Shown here: positions 10,230 to 14,770 of the stretch, piece by piece
How positions within the stretch are numbered: position 1 is the first letter of the stretch
How the letters are laid out: each line of letters begins with the position of its first letter
From: Escherichia phage EscoHU1
Sequence record: NC_133119.1
Length of the DNA: 64,000 bases
Strand: one strand, 5' to 3'
Position numbers and translations under genes: made by a program
Notes under the pieces: model-generated
Seen by the model: only the letters and a program-made list of their open reading frames with translations
What the model was told of the DNA's origin: nothing
Database searches by the model: none

Positions 10230-10263
10230 GAAAAGCCCTGCGCTCTCCAGGGAACGCAGGGCT
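10230..10263 (-). terminator. intrinsic terminator downstream of the SPFH gene
   Basis: Hairpin GCCCTGCG...CGCAGGGC followed by a T-run on the minus strand. Confidence 0.5.
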
Positions 10264-10287
10264 TACTTCAGAGATTACATGCTGGTA

Positions 10288-11235
10288 TTACTTATTACGC
10301 ATATCCATGATCATCTGGCCATCGTAACCAGTTCCCACTACTGTTTGCGGTACACCACCTTGGTATTTTTCAGCACGAAGCATTTCAACTTCCAGCTGCT
10401 TCCAACGAATCATTTCAGGAGTAATGGTACGTTGCAGAGCGGCGTTAGCTTCAGCTTCTTTCTTAGCTGCGTACAGTTTAGCATCTGCGTCACGTTCGTT
10501 AGCTACTGCCATGTTTTCACGAGCAGAGCGATCTGCTTCAGCTTGCTTAACTTTCTGCTGTGCTTCTTGTTCAACACGAGCCAGTTCAGCTTTTGCTGCG
10601 TTAACTTGTTCTTCACGAACTTTTGTGTTCTGTACCTGTTCCATAATTACCGGTGGCAGAGTAATATCCTGAAGGAATACTTGCTTAACGGTGTAACCAT
10701 AAGGGCGCGCATACTCTTCTACTTCTTGCTGAATAGCAGTTTGCAGTTGAGCCTGAATCTTAGCGTCGAACAGATCTTGTGCTTTTGGTACAGACTTACC
10801 AAACTCACGAATCGTAGATAGCATCTTCTCTTCAACGTATTTGTTAAGAGCTTGATCCTGAGTACCTGCGTTAACACGGTTCATAGGAGCTTTAGCTCCA
10901 TCAAACTGTAACATAACGGTAATGTCAACAGTAGACTTAAACTTATCCTGGCTAGGAACCTGAAGTTTATCCAGTTTCATAGAAATATCTTTCGTACTAA
11001 AAGTATCAAAAGAGGCTAATGGGTTAACAATATGGAAGCCTGGCAATACAGGATTCGGGCTAACTTTACCCAGGAAAGTTTGAGTCTTAACAGTACCATC
11101 CTGAACAACTGTATAGGAATTGAGAGCCAGAATAAGAGCACCAAGACCAACAGCAGCACCAACACCCCAACGTTTAATAGTACGAATTACTTTTTGCTCA
11201 GAAGTCAGTTCTTTAGTGTTTTTAGTAAACATATA
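10288..11235 (-). CDS. SPFH/band-7 (HflC/HflK/prohibitin-like) membrane protein
   Basis: N-terminal transmembrane helix then band-7-like domain and long coiled-coil tail; start taken at MFTKNTKEL because the longer ORF would overlap tRNA-Arg. Confidence 0.6.
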   Translation of the reverse strand, partial: YMFTKNTKELTSEQKVIRTIKRWGVGAAVGLGALILALNSYTVVQDGTVKTQTFLGKVSPNPVLPGFHIVNPLASFDTFSTKDISMKLDKLQVPSQDKFKSTVDITVMLQFDGAKAPMNRVNAGTQDQALNKYVEEKMLSTIREFGKSVPKAQDLFDAKIQAQLQTAIQQEVEEYARPYGYTVKQVFLQDITLPPVIMEQVQNTKVREEQVNAAKAELARVEQEAQQKVKQAEADRSARENMAVANERDADAKLYAAKKEAEANAALQRTITPEMIRWKQLEVEMLRAEKYQGGVPQTVVGTGYDGQMIMDMRNK

Positions 11236-11265
11236 TTTCCTTTGTTTAGTTACAGTTAATAAAAT

Positions 11266-11340
11266 TGGCCGAGGTGACAGGATTCGAACCTGCATAAAGG
11301 AATTTAGAAGACTCCTGCCTATCCCTTAGACTACACCCCG
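11266..11340 (-). tRNA. tRNA-Arg (anticodon UCU)
   Basis: Acceptor CGGGGTG/CACCTCG, anticodon stem GGAGT/ATTCC with loop CTTCTAA, T-arm GCAGG-TTCGAAT-CCTGT, CCA. Confidence 0.55.
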
Positions 11341-12192
11341 TTTAGGTATTTTTAAGAACTCTCGTAAAAGTCCATAAAAATACCCGACGGTAGGTAGGGT
11401 CAGCCCCCTCAGATTAAGCTCTGCAGCCCTTCCGTCAGACAATATCTTCCAGTTTAAGTCAGGGTGACTTTGTGGTTATGTTCTCCGTATGTGAAGAACT
11501 CGGTTAGGCTTAGGTCATGACTCCCAGCCTGCTGCTGCCGCTCAACAGGAATTATCGCGAATTACCTGTACTATTGGGCACCATTAGTGACATCTCTCAT
11601 GTCAGCATTTCCCACTCTCATATTCACGCGGTCTGTTAGAATCGCACCTCCGATTTTCGATGCGAAGCTGGATGCCTAGTCTCTAGGTTAAACGGGGCAC
11701 ACACTAGGCAGTGATCCCGAGTTCCGAGTTTGGTTGAGGCCGTCAGGTTTCCTCGTGGTTTAGCTGTTTCGATTCTAACCTAATACTGATCAGGCGGTGT
11801 ACCTCCTGAACCGTCATAGTATGTACTACAGCAGCGAATGCTTATCCGGTATAAGCCCGAGTTATCTGATTCTTTCCGACCGCAGGATTCGAACCTGCAT
11901 CTTCCACCAGTTACGGTTTGATATTACCGTTTATACTAGGACGGCAGTGTTATCACATAAGTCAGTTCGACACCCCACTAACATAAACTAGAGAAGAGTT
12001 TACGAGATTTCGGGACAGCTCCCGAGTTTTCCGCAGATTTTCAGTTCCCTATCAATAGCAATAAGCGTTAGCTCGTAGCCTCTCTCAGAGTACTTACTAG
12101 TCTCCAACTCACCGACTCTATTCAGTGGAATAGCTATCCTAGTAGGAATCACTAAACTCACTCAGCGTAATCGGCTCGCTGTTCTCTAATTT
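11341..12192 (-). ncRNA. candidate long structured non-coding transcript / tRNA leader
   Basis: About 850 nt with no ORF over 64 codons on either strand, visibly higher GC than flanking DNA, directly downstream of a consensus promoter (12201-12229) and upstream of tRNA-Arg; contains a tRNA-like T-arm at about 11880-11896. Confidence 0.35.
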
Positions 12193-12200
12193 ATGAATCT

Positions 12201-12229
12201 ATTATACAGAATTTTGAAGCGTTTAGCAA
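12201..12229 (-). promoter_or_regulatory. T5-type promoter driving the ORF-free region
   Basis: Reverse complement TTGCTA-17-TATAAT; no ORF downstream. Confidence 0.5.
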
Positions 12230-12237
12230 ATCAATTT

Positions 12238-12681
12238 TTAATTAAATTCGCCAGCAACCTGAGCAGCAATGCCACCATCGTAACGACCAGGAAACTCTTC
12301 CTTAATCGCTTTCATCAGCATACCCTTTGTAATCCCAGGATTCAACTTAACTAATTCTGCAAAGTATTTGCGAATCTCAGAATCAGATAACTGAGGCGGC
12401 AGATACTGTTGTAGCCATTTGTTCAGTATATATTCATACTGAGCAGACTGCAAGCTATAATTATCAAGGTCTTGACCGTGAAGTTTAGCTTTCGTCTGAT
12501 TAATGCTTTTCAGTTGAGCTTTTAGATAAGATACAAACTGTTCAGAAGTAATGAAGTCTTTATCAACACGCTGAAGATCTCCGATTATGGTCTGGTAGCT
12601 TTTAGCTACTTCTTTATCAGAACCATCAACCTTAGATTCCTGCAAAGCCCTACGCAAAACATCTAGAATATTCTCTTCCAT
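12238..12681 (-). CDS. GatB/YqeY-domain protein
   Basis: 147 aa; LNKWLQQYLPPQLSDSEIRKYFAEL...GMLMKAIKEEFPGRYDGGIAAQV resembles the YqeY/GatB C-terminal domain (EYLP.QLS...GR.DG). Confidence 0.5.
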   Translation of the reverse strand: MEENILDVLRRALQESKVDGSDKEVAKSYQTIIGDLQRVDKDFITSEQFVSYLKAQLKSINQTKAKLHGQDLDNYSLQSAQYEYILNKWLQQYLPPQLSDSEIRKYFAELVKLNPGITKGMLMKAIKEEFPGRYDGGIAAQVAGEFN

Positions 12682-12850
12682 TATTTAATTCCCAGTGCTT
12701 GGTTAAAAGATTGTTCTGTCATAACTGCCGAGACTTTGGCGAAATCAAACTTCTTAGGGTTTGTAGTAATTTCAGCAACGTTAGTAGTTTTAACTGTTTT
12801 CGTAGTACGGATACCACGAGTATTAACACCAATAATTACAACTGATTTCA
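12681..12850 (-). CDS. small hypothetical protein (about 55 aa)
   Basis: Hand-translated ORF MKSVVIIGVNTRGIRTTK... with GAGAGGAAG RBS; below ORF-track cutoff. Confidence 0.35.
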
Positions 12851-12882
12851 TATTTCGCTTCCTCTCATTAATTTATGAAAGT

Positions 12883-12911
12883 ATTATACAGAAATTTAAG
12901 TCTTTAAGCAA
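12883..12911 (-). promoter_or_regulatory. T5-type early promoter
   Basis: Reverse complement TTGCTT-17-TATAAT. Confidence 0.5.
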
Positions 12912-12919
12912 TCGAATTT

Positions 12920-13369
12920 TTAAGTTTTCTTAACCACAGGCTTATAGAACGTATGACCTTGAATCTTCGTTGTTTTCTTAAACTTCTTTGTCCAGTACGG
13001 TTTATCTTTACCACTATGAAAGTATAACGCTCCATGTGTTGGATCTTGTGGTAAATCAACGTAGTATATCACTCTAGCTAAATTCTTAGCAACTTGCCAA
13101 GCCTCATCGGTTTTATCAACTTTTGGTCTCTTGGCCACCCAAGAGAACTGGTTAGACTGATATACTACTTTACAGTAAGAATCAGGAAAAGTACCAGAGT
13201 TAACACGGTTTTTAGTAACCTGTGCAACTGCGATCATTCCTTTAGTGCCCTCACCTCGTGCTTCGAAGTAGATGTTTTTTGCAATGCAATCAATCTGCTT
13301 TGAGTCGTAGGTCGCATGACTATTGAAGCTATAGGTTAGGGCAGCTATTAAAAGCAAAGCTGCCTTCAT
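12920..13369 (-). CDS. SleB-family cell-wall hydrolase with signal peptide
   Basis: Signal peptide MKAALLLIAALTYSFNSHA then NIYFEARGE...IAVAQVTKNRV...YCKVVYQSNQFSW (SleB/Hydrolase_2 hallmark); start at MKAALL with GGAG RBS. Confidence 0.6.
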   Translation of the reverse strand: MKAALLLIAALTYSFNSHATYDSKQIDCIAKNIYFEARGEGTKGMIAVAQVTKNRVNSGTFPDSYCKVVYQSNQFSWVAKRPKVDKTDEAWQVAKNLARVIYYVDLPQDPTHGALYFHSGKDKPYWTKKFKKTTKIQGHTFYKPVVKKT

Positions 13370-13374
13370 TTTAT

Positions 13375-13692
13375 TTACTCCGGCCAATCGTACTCAATAC
13401 GATTAGGGCTTTCTTGATACCCTTCGTCTAGGAGATCATTACGCATGGTCTCTTTAGCTACTGGGTTCGAGGTTACTAGTACCACTTTCTTGGGTCTCTG
13501 ACCAAATTCTAGGAGTAAACGAAGAATTTGATAACCTTCCATACCATCTACAGCCAGATCGTTATCCATATAAACGAAATGACCGGTGGTATCGGTTTTA
13601 TTCAGAAACTCAACAGCGGCTTCGGGGGTTCGAATGATAATGTCCATTCCATGAAGGTTACGCACATCATCAATCAGAATATGAAAAATCAT
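13375..13692 (-). CDS. hypothetical protein, receiver-like fold suspected
   Basis: 105 aa ORF; alternating hydrophobic strands and acidic residues (ILIDDV...YMDNDL...VVLVTSNP). Confidence 0.4.
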   Translation of the reverse strand: MIFHILIDDVRNLHGMDIIIRTPEAAVEFLNKTDTTGHFVYMDNDLAVDGMEGYQILRLLLEFGQRPKKVVLVTSNPVAKETMRNDLLDEGYQESPNRIEYDWPE

Positions 13693-13722
13693 AATAGCCT
13701 CGTCTCATCAATTTAAAAATAT

Positions 13723-13751
13723 ATTATACAGAAAACTAAACTAATTAGCAA
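13723..13751 (-). promoter_or_regulatory. T5-type early promoter
   Basis: Reverse complement TTGCTA-17-TATAAT, RBS and ATG of the 13692 gene follow. Confidence 0.5.
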
Positions 13752-14131
13752 ATACATTTTTAAATTGAGAGACTAGTAAACCGATAAACAGCCTAGAGGC
13801 GCCACAGGCCATATCTTATGAGCCATGTACCTTTGATCTAGGGTTTGAATCATCAACGAATACTTTGCATCTTTTAGCTTTAGAAGGTTAGAAGTTTGAG
13901 TTCTTTTAACTTTTCAGCTTTCATACTTGAGCGTTGATCTTTGAAGTTGTGTTGGTACTACCAACGACCGTTTTTACAGTTCAGCTTAAGAGGCTGGTGT
14001 AATAAACATAATCTCCAATAGATTATACTTTATAGTATGGTCAGCGGTCTTATTTAACCTCGTATTTCAACCGCTGCTGCGAGGTAAGATGCTTGGGCTT
14101 TCGTCTACCGATTTACTAGTCTTTTAAATTA

Positions 14132-14770
14132 TTACTCTACTTCGATGAAAGTAGAGGCGTTGGACTCAGACAGAACAAAGTCAACGTTAGTTGCAAAGTC
14201 CTGGTATTCTTCGTCGTGTTGCTTGATCAGCTTTTCTAGCTCCAGCGGATCGATCAGGAACGGAGTGTTCTTGAGTTCCAGCAGGTTAAGCTGCATCTTA
14301 ACTTCATCCTCGGAAGTCTTCTTGTCGCGGGTAGCCATGGTATCCTGCAGACGCTCATACTTGGCGTCAAACTGAGCCTTCTGAGTGTTAAACTTAACAG
14401 TAGCAGCATGGAACTGCTTACGCATGTTAGCCAGCAACTGAGCTTTGAGTTCCATAGAACGCTTAGCTTCGATTGCTTCCGCAACAGTCATAGAGCGAGA
14501 ACCGATCTCTACAACAGTTTCAGCATTGCTCTTGATCAGCGCTGCTTTCAGATGATCACGCTGGGTCATCATATCCAGCAGAGACTGGAAATCAGTTTTA
14601 ATACGAGTAGACAGAGCATCTACTTCGATTGCAGCACCAACGACAACTTGATTCTTGTCTTTACCTTCACCAACAGCAATCAAAAGCTGTTGTTCAGTAG
14701 CTTTACGGATTTTAGCTTCCAGAGACTTGATAGTTGCCAGAGCACGAGTTTTAGAGATACGAGTAGACAT
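14132..14770 (-). CDS. hypothetical helical protein
   Basis: 212 aa ORF with host-like codon usage suggesting high expression. Confidence 0.5.
   Translation of the reverse strand: MSTRISKTRALATIKSLEAKIRKATEQQLLIAVGEGKDKNQVVVGAAIEVDALSTRIKTDFQSLLDMMTQRDHLKAALIKSNAETVVEIGSRSMTVAEAIEAKRSMELKAQLLANMRKQFHAATVKFNTQKAQFDAKYERLQDTMATRDKKTSEDEVKMQLNLLELKNTPFLIDPLELEKLIKQHDEEYQDFATNVDFVLSESNASTFIEVE

What the first reader, a model, noticed from the sequence alone, without database searches (positions are those of the whole stretch)
12238..12681. GatB/YqeY-domain protein encoded beside the tRNA and candidate ncRNA region
The C-terminal half matches the YqeY/GatB-type helical domain (EYLP.QLS...GR.DG). 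A phage copy placed directly upstream of the promoter for the ORF-free transcript and tRNA-Arg suggests a role in tRNA handling or translation remodelling.
Basis: partly seen in the sequence, partly recalled or inferred. Interest (0 to 1): 0.45.

Follow-up and report, generated by a model that had tools for sequence, protein, structure and literature searches.

The report
Phage YqeY protein beside tRNA genes
This is the T5-family phage copy of YqeY, a small helical protein of still unknown function related to the tRNA-docking tail of the enzyme GatB; it is already annotated in databases, and its repeated placement next to phage tRNA and RNA-repair genes supports, but does not prove, a role in tRNA handling.

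Summary
The ORF at 12238..12681 (minus strand, 147 aa) is real. The window is a T5-like Epseptimavirus, about 99% identical to Salmonella phages Stitch and S114, and the ORF is the ortholog of T5 gene T5.081.

The stated context is correct. A TTGCTA-17-TATAAT promoter follows the stop codon, then an ORF-free stretch equivalent to T5 "RNAX", then tRNA-Arg(TCT).

Among about 17 phage lineages with YqeY homologues, 7 have tRNA genes within 1 kb. Five have a tRNA-repair or RNA-repair gene (RtcB, Rnl1 twice, Thg1, RlaP) within about 2.5 kb.

A tRNA-linked accessory role is the best reading, but RNA binding is untested. Identical proteins are already labelled YqeY-domain in GenBank, so the finding is low in novelty and moderate in interest.

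The parts
12238..12681 (-). CDS of 147 aa: a full-length standalone YqeY-family protein, the ortholog of T5 gene T5.081. The N-terminal helical sub-domain is roughly residues 1-94. The C-terminal three-helix bundle is roughly residues 95-147 and corresponds to YqeY-C and the GatB tail.
12681..12851 (-). CDS of 56 aa, DUF7616 (ortholog of T5.082), basic (pI 10.4). Its TAA stop overlaps the ATG of the YqeY gene (TAATG), so the two are probably translationally coupled.
   Evidence: Pfam DUF7616 5.6e-34. Junction sequence AAATAATGGAA and pI. The same 1-nt overlap occurs in T5 (42051). This partner is absent in My1, Proteus phage 2 and Thalassa.
12883..12911 (-). Promoter-like site TTGCTT-17-TATAAT that would drive the DUF7616-YqeY pair. 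It corresponds to the T5 early promoter annotated as P-D/E 33.
   Evidence: Read directly from the sequence. Annotated 'P-D/E 33-like promoter' in S114 and T5 at the same position. The consensus scan did not list it because the -35 hexamer matches only 3 of 6.
12201..12229 (-). Promoter-like site TTGCTA-17-TATAAT, 9 nt after the YqeY stop codon. It is equivalent to T5 promoter P16-17 and would drive the ORF-free RNA and tRNA-Arg.
11341..12200 (-). ORF-free transcribed stretch equivalent to T5 'RNAX' (stable RNA of unknown function). It contains a tRNA-like element at 11874..11945.
   Evidence: T5 annotation. Rfam tRNA 29.3 bits. Blocks 79-85% identical to T5 RNAX, plus one of 92.6% spanning its 3' end and tRNA-Arg. 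No minus-strand terminator-like site between the YqeY gene and 10264.
11266..11340 (-). tRNA-Arg (anticodon TCT), the tRNA gene nearest to the YqeY gene.
   Evidence: ARAGORN. Rfam tRNA 49.3 bits.

Best explanation
**What it is.** The gene encodes a complete, non-enzymatic standalone YqeY-family protein and is the Epseptimavirus ortholog of T5.081.

**Expression (inferred from the annotated promoter).** It is transcribed early by host RNA polymerase from a T5-type sigma-70 promoter. It is translated by coupling to the small basic DUF7616 protein encoded just upstream.

**Proposed mechanism (inferred).**
- The well-conserved C-terminal three-helix bundle is the homologue of the GatB/GatE tail domain, which docks on the D-loop/elbow of tRNA. 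It recognises the elbow of tRNAs: phage tRNAs, damaged host tRNAs, or the tRNA-like module of RNAX.
- The fast-evolving N-terminal helical domain contacts a partner protein, such as an aminoacyl-tRNA synthetase or a tRNA-processing or repair enzyme.
- The protein would thus act in trans as an affinity or specificity adaptor. It would favour maturation, charging or repair of tRNAs during infection of hosts such as E. coli (and, from my own knowledge, Salmonella) that have no YqeY or GatB of their own.

**Shown here:** the ORF, the fold, family membership, the conservation pattern, promoter and gene order, and recurrent linkage to tRNA and RNA-repair genes in other phages.

**Inferred:** early expression, tRNA binding, the existence of a partner, and the benefit to the phage.
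For: **Fold and family**
- AF2 pLDDT 92.6.
- Foldseek probability 1.00 to 1NG6, 8XJE and 8XJG, with the next hit at E about 0.8.
- Profile hit to 1NG6 at 1e-20 and to the GatE tail at 0.0069.
- 50 of 57 remote homologues match Pfam YqeY at E <= 0.001.

**Conservation**
- The nearly invariant residues across remote homologues are M123, K127, Y134, D135 and G136.
- They lie in helix 2, the loop and helix 3 of the C-domain. In S. aureus GatB the equivalent elements form the conserved pocket modelled on the tRNA D-loop (PMC2811023).
- The C-domain is 77% identical among T5-like phages, the N-domain 49%.
- The gene is kept full-length in 449 of 460 matching phage records.

**Linkage to tRNA genes (within 1 kb)**
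- All four Demerecviridae branches sampled: T5, Thalassa, where the gene lies inside the tRNA array, Proteus phage 2 and My1.
- Ralstonia phage RSP15.
- Metagenomic contigs L015, L016, L017 and L019.
- Phage pf16 (PMC5587285).
- L021, L033 and L030 have tRNAs at 2-5 kb.
- Rough binomial P(>=7 of 16) is about 9e-4 at a background of 0.11.

**Linkage to tRNA/RNA repair genes**
- RtcB immediately upstream in BcepSauron (1.8e-119).
- HD phosphohydrolase, P-loop kinase and Rnl1-like ligase directly downstream in RSP15.
- Thg1 in L015.
- RlaP in L030.
- RNA_lig_T4_1 in L033.
- A cREC_REC protein in the adjacent operon of this window (PMC7824862).

**Host background.** E. coli has no yqeY (PMC13374519).
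Against: - The protein is acidic (pI 5.5), which is unlike a typical free RNA binder.
- The isolated YqeY domain of D. radiodurans GlnRS did not shift tRNA and did not work in trans (PMC1865053).
- The phage protein lacks the extra helix and the Lys-rich KxGKxK motif that GatB uses near the variable loop.
- Seven of about 17 lineages have no tRNA within 6 kb.
- Synteny within Demerecviridae is inherited, so it counts as a single observation.
- Lineage independence and the chance background are only roughly estimated.
- The YqeY fold can serve as a pure protein-protein bridge, as Aim41/NUQM does in yeast complex I (PMC12487887).
- I found no experimental data on T5.081 in the literature searched.
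Confidence: 0.45

Rival explanations
1. It is a ribosome- or translation-linked factor. In bacteria yqeY is co-transcribed, and possibly translationally coupled, with rpsU (ribosomal protein bS21). The phage copy, coupled to a small basic protein, would act on the ribosome or on bS21-dependent initiation rather than on tRNA.
For: - The rpsU-yqeY operon is co-regulated in F. tularensis (PMC13374519).
- rpsU and yqeY are adjacent in H. halodurans (PMC11445130).
- In this window the gene is translationally coupled to a 56-aa basic protein with pI 10.4, which superficially resembles the bS21-YqeY pairing.
Against: - DUF7616 has no Pfam match to Ribosomal_S21.
- Its low-confidence model is a beta-hairpin plus short helices. 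From my own knowledge bS21 is all-helical, so the model does not resemble it.
- DUF7616 is missing next to YqeY in My1, Proteus phage 2 and Thalassa.
- No bS21-like gene was seen beside any phage YqeY examined, whereas tRNA and RNA-repair genes recur.
- No direct YqeY-ribosome interaction is reported in the papers read.
Confidence: 0.2
2. It is a protein-protein adaptor unrelated to RNA. The two-domain helical fold would bridge or inhibit host or phage proteins, as the YqeY-family subunit NUQM/Aim41 bridges two domains of yeast complex I. On this view the tRNA neighbourhood is only inherited gene order.
For: - NUQM acts as a structural bridge, mainly through its N-terminal domain (PMC12487887).
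- The protein is acidic.
- An isolated YqeY domain does not bind tRNA.
- Seven lineages have no nearby tRNA.
Against: - The best-conserved part is the C-terminal bundle homologous to the tRNA-docking GatB/GatE tail, not the N-domain.
- Linkage to tRNA arrays and to RNA ligases, Thg1 or RlaP recurs in lineages that share no other neighbours.
Confidence: 0.15
3. It is what many database records call it: a tRNA amidotransferase (GatB) subunit, an aspartyl/glutamyl-tRNA synthetase, or a recombination-related exonuclease, with the corresponding enzymatic activity.
For: Only names propagated in PHROG 1460 and in GenBank and RefSeq records.
Against: - The protein is 147 aa and all-helical.
- Its only significant Pfam match is YqeY. 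The next hits, RasGAP_C (E 0.031) and YlmH_RBD (E 0.18), are far below their cut-offs, and no GatB catalytic, amidase, synthetase or nuclease family appears.
- NCBIfam gives no match.
- Structural neighbours are only non-enzymatic YqeY proteins.
- GatB needs its N-terminal cradle domain plus GatA and GatC (PMC2811023).
- Another gene three positions upstream is the one annotated as the exonuclease, the T5.087-like gene.
Confidence: 0.01

Closest known systems
Standalone bacterial YqeY proteins (B. subtilis 1NG6; C. jejuni 8XJE; V. parahaemolyticus 8XJG; Pfam PF09424)
   Same: - Same length class: 147 aa here, against deposited chains of 148-153 aa.
- Colinear full-length alignment.
- Same conserved C-terminal G-x-(Y/A)-D-G region.
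- Function unknown in both.
   Different: - Encoded by a lytic phage whose host lacks the gene.
- Not next to rpsU; it is coupled instead to DUF7616 and sits at the head of a tRNA/RNAX unit.
- Sequence identity is only about 12-20%.
- The single-sequence Pfam score falls just under the gathering cut-off.
T5 gene T5.081 and its orthologs across Demerecviridae (for example Stitch gp84, S114 orf74)
   Same: - Same gene at the same position. The order is endolysin-like hydrolase, DUF7616, YqeY, promoter P16-17, RNAX, tRNA-Arg.
- Proteins 100% identical to this one are deposited, some labelled 'YqeY protein domain-containing protein'.
   Different: - T5 belongs to the divergent clade of T5-like phages whose proteins are 44-59% identical to this one, with the divergence concentrated in the N-domain.
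- The window carries about 180 bp between the promoter and the conserved RNAX block that T5 lacks.
C-terminal tail domain of GatB/GatE (tRNA-dependent amidotransferases) and the YqeY appendix of D. radiodurans GlnRS
   Same: - Homologous three-helix bundle. The GatB tail superimposes on YqeY-C at 1.97 A (PMC2811023), and the profile hits the GatE tail at E = 0.0069.
- This is the part modelled on the tRNA D-loop.
   Different: - No catalytic cradle domain and no GatA or GatC partner.
- Lacks the extra helix and the Lys-rich motif.
- Free-standing rather than tethered in cis. The Deinococcus domain works only in cis (PMC1865053).
Pseudomonas phage pf16 gp65 and other phage YqeY-like proteins (PHROG 1460)
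   Same: - Same fold in BFVD (probability 1.00).
- pf16 gp65 is reported adjacent to the phage tRNA clusters and was speculated to aid tRNA charging (PMC5587285).
   Different: - A different phage family (T4-like) with only 15% sequence identity.
- No experimental work on either protein.
Aim41/NUQM, the YqeY-superfamily subunit of Pichia pastoris complex I
   Different: It is a mitochondrial structural bridge between complex I domains with no RNA role (PMC12487887). It shows that the fold alone does not imply tRNA binding.

Membership tests
Standalone YqeY family (Pfam PF09424) | Sequence match to the family HMM above the curated threshold | tested here: inconclusive
   As a single sequence the protein scores 25.4 bits against a gathering score of 27, at E = 1.7e-5, and only over residues 90-141. 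A profile of the protein plus its remote homologues hits YqeY structures 1NG6, 8XJG and 8XJE at 1e-20, 1e-18 and 1e-14. 50 of 57 of those homologues match PF09424 at E <= 0.001.
Standalone YqeY family (Pfam PF09424) | Protein of about 150 aa with an N-terminal helical sub-domain plus a C-terminal three-helix bundle (the 1NG6 fold) | tested here: met
Standalone YqeY family (Pfam PF09424) | Conserved C-terminal motif (LP-x-QL ... G-x-x-D-G) | tested here: met
   YLPPQLS and PGRYDGG are present. P95, M123, K127, Y134, D135 and G136 are nearly invariant across 57 remote homologues.
Bacterial rpsU-yqeY operon arrangement | yqeY lies immediately downstream of the bS21 gene (rpsU) | tested here: not met
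   The upstream gene is DUF7616, with no Ribosomal_S21 match. Other phage homologues are preceded by an endolysin, ClpP, RtcB, tRNAs and so on.
GatB subunit of Asp/Glu-tRNA amidotransferase | N-terminal catalytic cradle domain, about 475 aa in total | tested here: not met
   The protein is 147 aa, YqeY is its only significant Pfam match, and no GatB catalytic-domain family appears. NCBIfam gives no match.
GatB subunit of Asp/Glu-tRNA amidotransferase | Extra helix and Lys-rich KxGKxK motif in the tail domain | tested here: not met
   The C-domain has only three helices. The motif is described as absent from YqeY-C (PMC2811023), and no KxGKxK is present in the sequence.
GatB subunit of Asp/Glu-tRNA amidotransferase | Partner subunits GatA and GatC encoded by the same genome | not tested
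   I did not scan the whole window. None is annotated in the 20-kb T5 region or in the Stitch and S114 regions I read.
tRNA-binding protein (functional class) | Direct, specific binding to tRNA | not testable with these tools
   Support is indirect only: homology to the GatB/GatE tail and gene linkage. Against it stand the acidic pI of 5.5 and the negative EMSA for an isolated YqeY domain (PMC1865053).

The most novel reading that the evidence does not exclude
Phage YqeY proteins are trans-acting tRNA-elbow recognition modules. They work with tRNA repair or maturation enzymes (RtcB, Rnl1/Pnkp-type kits, Thg1, RlaP, cRec), or with host synthetases, to keep phage and host tRNAs functional when anticodon-nuclease defences attack. 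If true, this would give the first assigned function to the widespread, 20-year-old 'unknown function' YqeY family. It would also add a new accessory component to phage tRNA counter-defence.
Probability: 0.2. Interest if true: 0.65.

Novelty: already known. Interest (0 to 1): 0.3.

Why it matters
YqeY is a widespread protein family in bacteria, mitochondria and phages. Crystal structures have existed since 2003, yet papers from 2024-2026 still list its function as unknown.

T5-like phages infect E. coli (and Salmonella), which lacks YqeY and, from my own knowledge, GatCAB. The phage gene is therefore the only member of the family in the infected cell, which makes a clean genetic system for finding out what YqeY does.

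In unrelated phages YqeY genes recur beside tRNA arrays and RNA ligases. If that reflects function, YqeY would be a new accessory factor of phage tRNA maintenance or counter-defence.

As it stands, the finding itself confirms an existing annotation. It also corrects misleading database names such as 'tRNA amidotransferase' and 'recombination-related exonuclease'.

Tried and rejected
- **Locus retrieval from viral contigs.** The search for related loci with the diverse alignments A2 and A3 failed because no stretch was conserved enough. I sampled lineages instead by tblastn against phage records and by exact-protein contig look-ups. Three of those contigs (L020, L025, L026) were too short to be informative.\n- **Literature.** Searches for T5.081, T5.082, DUF7616, RNAX and 'tRNA amidotransferase' with 'T5-like' found nothing. 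No paper links YqeY with RNA repair beyond genome announcements.\n- **'Putative tRNA synthetase' next to YqeY in phage PaulScherrer.** The label could not be substantiated. There was no Pfam, NCBIfam or PDB sequence match, only a PHROG name, so I did not count it as evidence.\n- **DUF7616 as a bS21 analogue.** There is no sequence match. The single-sequence AF2 model is weak (pLDDT 74, other models about 50) and predicts a beta-hairpin plus short helices. The idea is unsupported, and I ran no fold search on that model.\n- **Weak profile hits.** Hits to AcrIF14, CENP-A/Cse4 and others (E 0.07-0.8) are helical-repeat noise.\n- **NCBIfam.** It gave no match for the YqeY-like, DUF7616 or cREC proteins.\n- **GatB chains in fold searches.** None appeared among the top hits. 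The GatB/GatE relation rests on the profile hit to the GatE tail and on published superpositions.

Full report
**1. What the window is and whether the ORF is there**

Megablast of 11200-14200 finds 517 phage records. The best are about 99% identical and cover 100% of the query: Salmonella phages Stitch and S114, Escherichia phage Wa28 and others, all Demerecviridae of the genus Epseptimavirus. The ORF list contains 12238..12681 on the minus strand, ATG start, 147 aa.

In phage T5 the same position is occupied by T5.081 (144 aa). Downstream of it lie promoter P16-17, the misc_RNA 'RNAX, stable RNA with unknown functions' (719 nt) and tRNA-Arg. S114 and Stitch are annotated the same way.

tblastn finds the protein in 460 phage records, 449 of them at 80% coverage or more. 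Some hits are 100% identical and already labelled 'YqeY protein domain-containing protein'. Others are called 'tRNA amidotransferase' or 'recombination related exonuclease'.

**2. Is the YqeY assignment real?**

- As a single sequence against Pfam, YqeY (PF09424) matches residues 90-141 at E = 1.7e-5. The score of 25.4 bits is just below the gathering score of 27.
- PHROG 1460 matches at 2.8e-46.
- phmmer against PDB sequences gives B. subtilis YqeY (1NG6, 148 aa) as the best hit, at E = 0.023.
- A profile of 23 T5-like homologues aligns 6-138 to residues 4-141 of 1NG6, at E = 0.0084.
- An exhaustive profile search of 1.84 billion representative proteins finds 769 proteins at E <= 0.001. Nearly all of the best 150 are 130-155 aa and align end to end.
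- 50 of 57 sampled members match Pfam YqeY at E <= 0.001, the best at 3.5e-27.
- A profile of these 57 hits 1NG6 at 1e-20, V. parahaemolyticus YqeY at 1e-18, C. jejuni YqeY at 1e-14 and the tail of GatE at 0.0069.
- The AlphaFold2 model is confident (pLDDT 92.6, pTM 0.76) and has seven helices.
- Foldseek against the PDB returns only YqeY structures at probability 1.00 (TM 0.56-0.71). After those, hits fall to E about 0.8.
- BFVD holds about 15 viral cluster representatives with the same fold. They include pf16, Serratia phage BF and Bacillus phage G.

The protein is therefore a complete standalone YqeY, not just a C-terminal YqeY half.

**3. What it is not**

YqeY is the only significant Pfam match. 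The next hits, RasGAP_C (E 0.031) and YlmH_RBD (E 0.18), are far below their cut-offs, and no GatB catalytic, amidase, synthetase or nuclease family appears. NCBIfam has no match.

GatB is about 475 aa and has a catalytic cradle domain. Its tail carries an extra helix and a Lys-rich KxGKxK motif that standalone YqeY-C lacks (PMC2811023). The phage C-domain has three helices and no such motif. The database names 'tRNA amidotransferase', 'aspartyl/glutamyl-tRNA synthetase' and 'recombination-related exonuclease' are therefore unsupported.

**4. Local anatomy (minus strand, in the direction of transcription)**

1. A promoter-like site TTGCTT-17-TATAAT at 12911..12883. I read it, and it is annotated P-D/E 33-like in S114 and T5.
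2. DUF7616, 56 aa, at 12851..12681 (Pfam 5.6e-34), with pI 10.4.
3. The YqeY gene. Its ATG overlaps the DUF7616 stop codon (AAATAATGG). The same overlap occurs in T5, so translational coupling is likely.
4. Nine nucleotides after the YqeY stop codon, TTGCTA-17-TATAAT at 12229..12201, equivalent to P16-17.
5. About 860 nt without a credible ORF, equivalent to RNAX.
6. tRNA-Arg(TCT) at 11340..11266.
7. The SPFH/Band_7 lipoprotein gene.
8. A strong terminator-like hairpin at 10264..10233.

No minus-strand terminator-like site lies between the YqeY gene and RNAX. Read-through from the upstream promoter could therefore place YqeY, RNAX and tRNA-Arg on one transcript; this is an inference.

The operon just upstream encodes a SleB-type cell-wall hydrolase and a cREC_REC protein (1.1e-14). 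The cRec domain was predicted to process cyclic phosphates and is linked in operons to RNA ligases (PMC7824862).

**5. What is known about YqeY**

- The tail domains of GatB and GatE are homologous to YqeY-C and are implicated in recognising the tRNA D-loop. The conserved pocket is formed by the last two helices and the loop between them (PMC2811023).
- The YqeY appendix of D. radiodurans GlnRS raises tRNA-Gln affinity, but only in cis. The isolated domain neither shifts tRNA nor acts in trans (PMC1865053).
- In bacteria yqeY follows rpsU (bS21) and is co-regulated with it. E. coli lacks the gene, and the protein is described as poorly characterised (PMC13374519). A 2024 paper still lists it as 'unknown function' (PMC11445130).
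- A yeast homologue is a structural bridge in complex I (PMC12487887).
- In the phage protein the nearly invariant residues M123, K127, Y134, D135 and G136 lie in helix 2, the loop and helix 3 of the C-domain. These are the equivalent of the GatB D-loop pocket, an inference through the published superposition.

**6. Comparative context: a test of the tRNA-handling idea**

*Within Demerecviridae.* The gene sits at the head of, or inside, the tRNA array in all four branches sampled.
- T5.
- My1: tRNA-Leu about 630 bp downstream.
- Proteus phage 2: tRNA-Arg TCT about 800 bp downstream.
- Vibrio phage Thalassa: the gene lies between tRNA-Val and tRNA-Trp.

The upstream neighbour differs in each case: DUF7616, an endolysin, ClpP or a tRNA. 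Metagenomic contigs L027 and L034 share this synteny. I count all of these as one lineage.

*Outside that family.* tblastn with remote homologues finds YqeY genes in many large phages.

| Distance to nearest tRNA | Lineages |
|---|---|
| Within 1 kb | Ralstonia RSP15 (0.67 kb after a seven-tRNA cluster); L015 (tRNA-Arg TCT 247 bp upstream); L016 (tRNAs on both sides, one 9 bp away); L017/L018 (five tRNAs from 247 bp); L019 (322 bp); pf16 by published description (PMC5587285) |
| 2-5 kb | L021 (15 tRNAs at 3.1 kb); L033 (2.2 kb); L030 (5 kb) |
| None within 6 kb | Cassandra, CcrSwift, Aeromonas G2, Cronobacter S13, phiN3, PaulScherrer, BcepSauron |

About 12.5% of this window lies within 1 kb of a tRNA, and I estimate about 11% for T5 from the tRNA coordinates. 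With a background of 0.11, seven or more of 16 lineages has a binomial probability of about 9e-4. This figure is rough. Lineage independence is judged only from different neighbours and 25-45% protein identity, and short contigs limit what can be seen.

*Recognised tRNA- or RNA-repair genes nearby.*
- BcepSauron: RtcB is the gene immediately upstream (1.8e-119).
- RSP15: an HD phosphohydrolase, a P-loop kinase of the AAA_33/Zeta/KTI12 type, a T4 Rnl1-like ligase (PHROG 562, 7.8e-56) and phosphoesterases follow directly.
- L015: Thg1, 2.3 kb downstream.
- L030: RlaP, 2.1 kb downstream.
- L033: RNA_lig_T4_1, 1.4 kb downstream.

The literature I searched does not discuss a link between YqeY and RNA repair.

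**7. Interpretation**

The identity of the protein is settled. For function, the best-supported reading is a non-enzymatic, tRNA-associated accessory protein. The conserved C-terminal bundle would recognise the tRNA elbow. The variable N-domain would contact a partner enzyme. The protein would help maturation, charging or repair of tRNAs early in infection. I give this reading a probability of about 0.45.

Several things weigh against it:
- the acidic pI of 5.5;
- the negative in-trans result for the Deinococcus domain;
- the missing Lys-rich motif;
- the lineages without nearby tRNAs;
- the precedent of a purely structural YqeY-fold subunit.

The rivals are a bS21- or ribosome-linked role (0.2), an RNA-independent protein adaptor (0.15) and the enzymatic roles implied by database names (about 0.01).

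**8. Novelty and score**

The gene, its YqeY domain and its position next to promoter P16-17, RNAX and tRNA-Arg are already in public annotation. The idea that a phage YqeY next to tRNAs acts on tRNA charging was published for pf16 in 2017.

This check adds four things:
- proof that the YqeY fold spans the full length of the protein;
- rejection of the enzymatic database names;
- the asymmetry in conservation between the two domains;
- a multi-lineage, though only roughly quantified, linkage to tRNA arrays and RNA-repair genes.

I rate the finding 'already known' with interest 0.3. The most novel reading not excluded is YqeY as a tRNA-elbow adaptor for tRNA repair or counter-defence. I give that reading a probability of about 0.2 and an interest of 0.65 if true.

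Noticed in passing
window 11874..11945 (-), within block 11840..12000: A tRNA-like element lies inside the ORF-free RNAX-equivalent stretch. Rfam tRNA scores 29.3 bits against a gathering score of 29. The D- and T-arms are intact (GGUUCGAAUCC) and the acceptor stem has two non-canonical pairs. ARAGORN misses it. The surrounding 160-nt block is 85% identical to the 5' end of T5 RNAX, which is better conserved than the neighbouring coding DNA.
   Followed up: partly
window 12001..12182: About 180 bp lie between the P16-17-like promoter and the conserved RNAX block with no counterpart in T5, where the two are contiguous. The stretch contains only a 53-aa ORF that the ORF tool listed mechanically.
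   Followed up: no
window 13375..13692 (-): A 105-aa protein with a cREC_REC domain (Pfam 1.1e-14) is encoded in the operon just upstream of the YqeY pair. This domain was predicted to process cyclic phosphates and is linked in operons to RNA ligases (PMC7824862). It is another RNA-end-processing candidate in this neighbourhood.
   Followed up: partly
window 12681..12851 (-): DUF7616 is a 56-aa basic protein (pI 10.4) of unknown function, with its stop codon overlapping the YqeY start (TAATG). It occurs in T5 and Epseptimavirus but not next to YqeY in My1, Proteus phage 2 or Thalassa. The single-sequence AF2 model is weak (pLDDT 74) and shows a beta-hairpin plus short helices.
   Followed up: partly
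window 13760..14130: A second ORF-free stretch of about 370 bp lies between the T5.085-like gene (14132..14770) and the promoter at 13751..13723. T5 has a similar gap. Rfam found nothing there at E <= 1. It could be a long 3' UTR or another small RNA.
   Followed up: no
window 14132..14770 (-): This 212-aa protein is labelled 'tail fiber protein' through PHROG 1491 and RefSeq, yet it sits among early genes, has no supporting Pfam domain and looks coiled-coil-rich. The name is probably a propagated mis-annotation.
   Followed up: no
window 11266..11340; L005 6225..6301; L015 2958..3034; L027 1615..1690; L007 2775..2850; L033 1003..1079: tRNA-Arg(TCT) is repeatedly the nearest tRNA to the YqeY gene, or the first tRNA of the adjacent cluster, in different lineages. 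This may only reflect that Arg-TCT is, as far as I know, among the tRNAs most often carried by phages.
   Followed up: no
L007 (Ralstonia phage RSP15) 7066..11593: Directly after the tRNA cluster and YqeY comes a likely T4-style tRNA repair kit: an HD phosphohydrolase, a P-loop kinase, an Rnl1-like RNA ligase and further phosphoesterases. The ligase matches PHROG 562 at 7.8e-56 but is annotated 'metallophosphoesterase' in the record.
   Followed up: partly
window 10288..11295 (-): The mechanically listed 335-aa ORF runs into the tRNA-Arg gene at its 5' end. S114 and Stitch annotate two genes here instead: an SPFH/Band_7 lipoprotein of 945 nt and a separate 201-nt ORF. The true start is therefore further downstream.
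   Followed up: no
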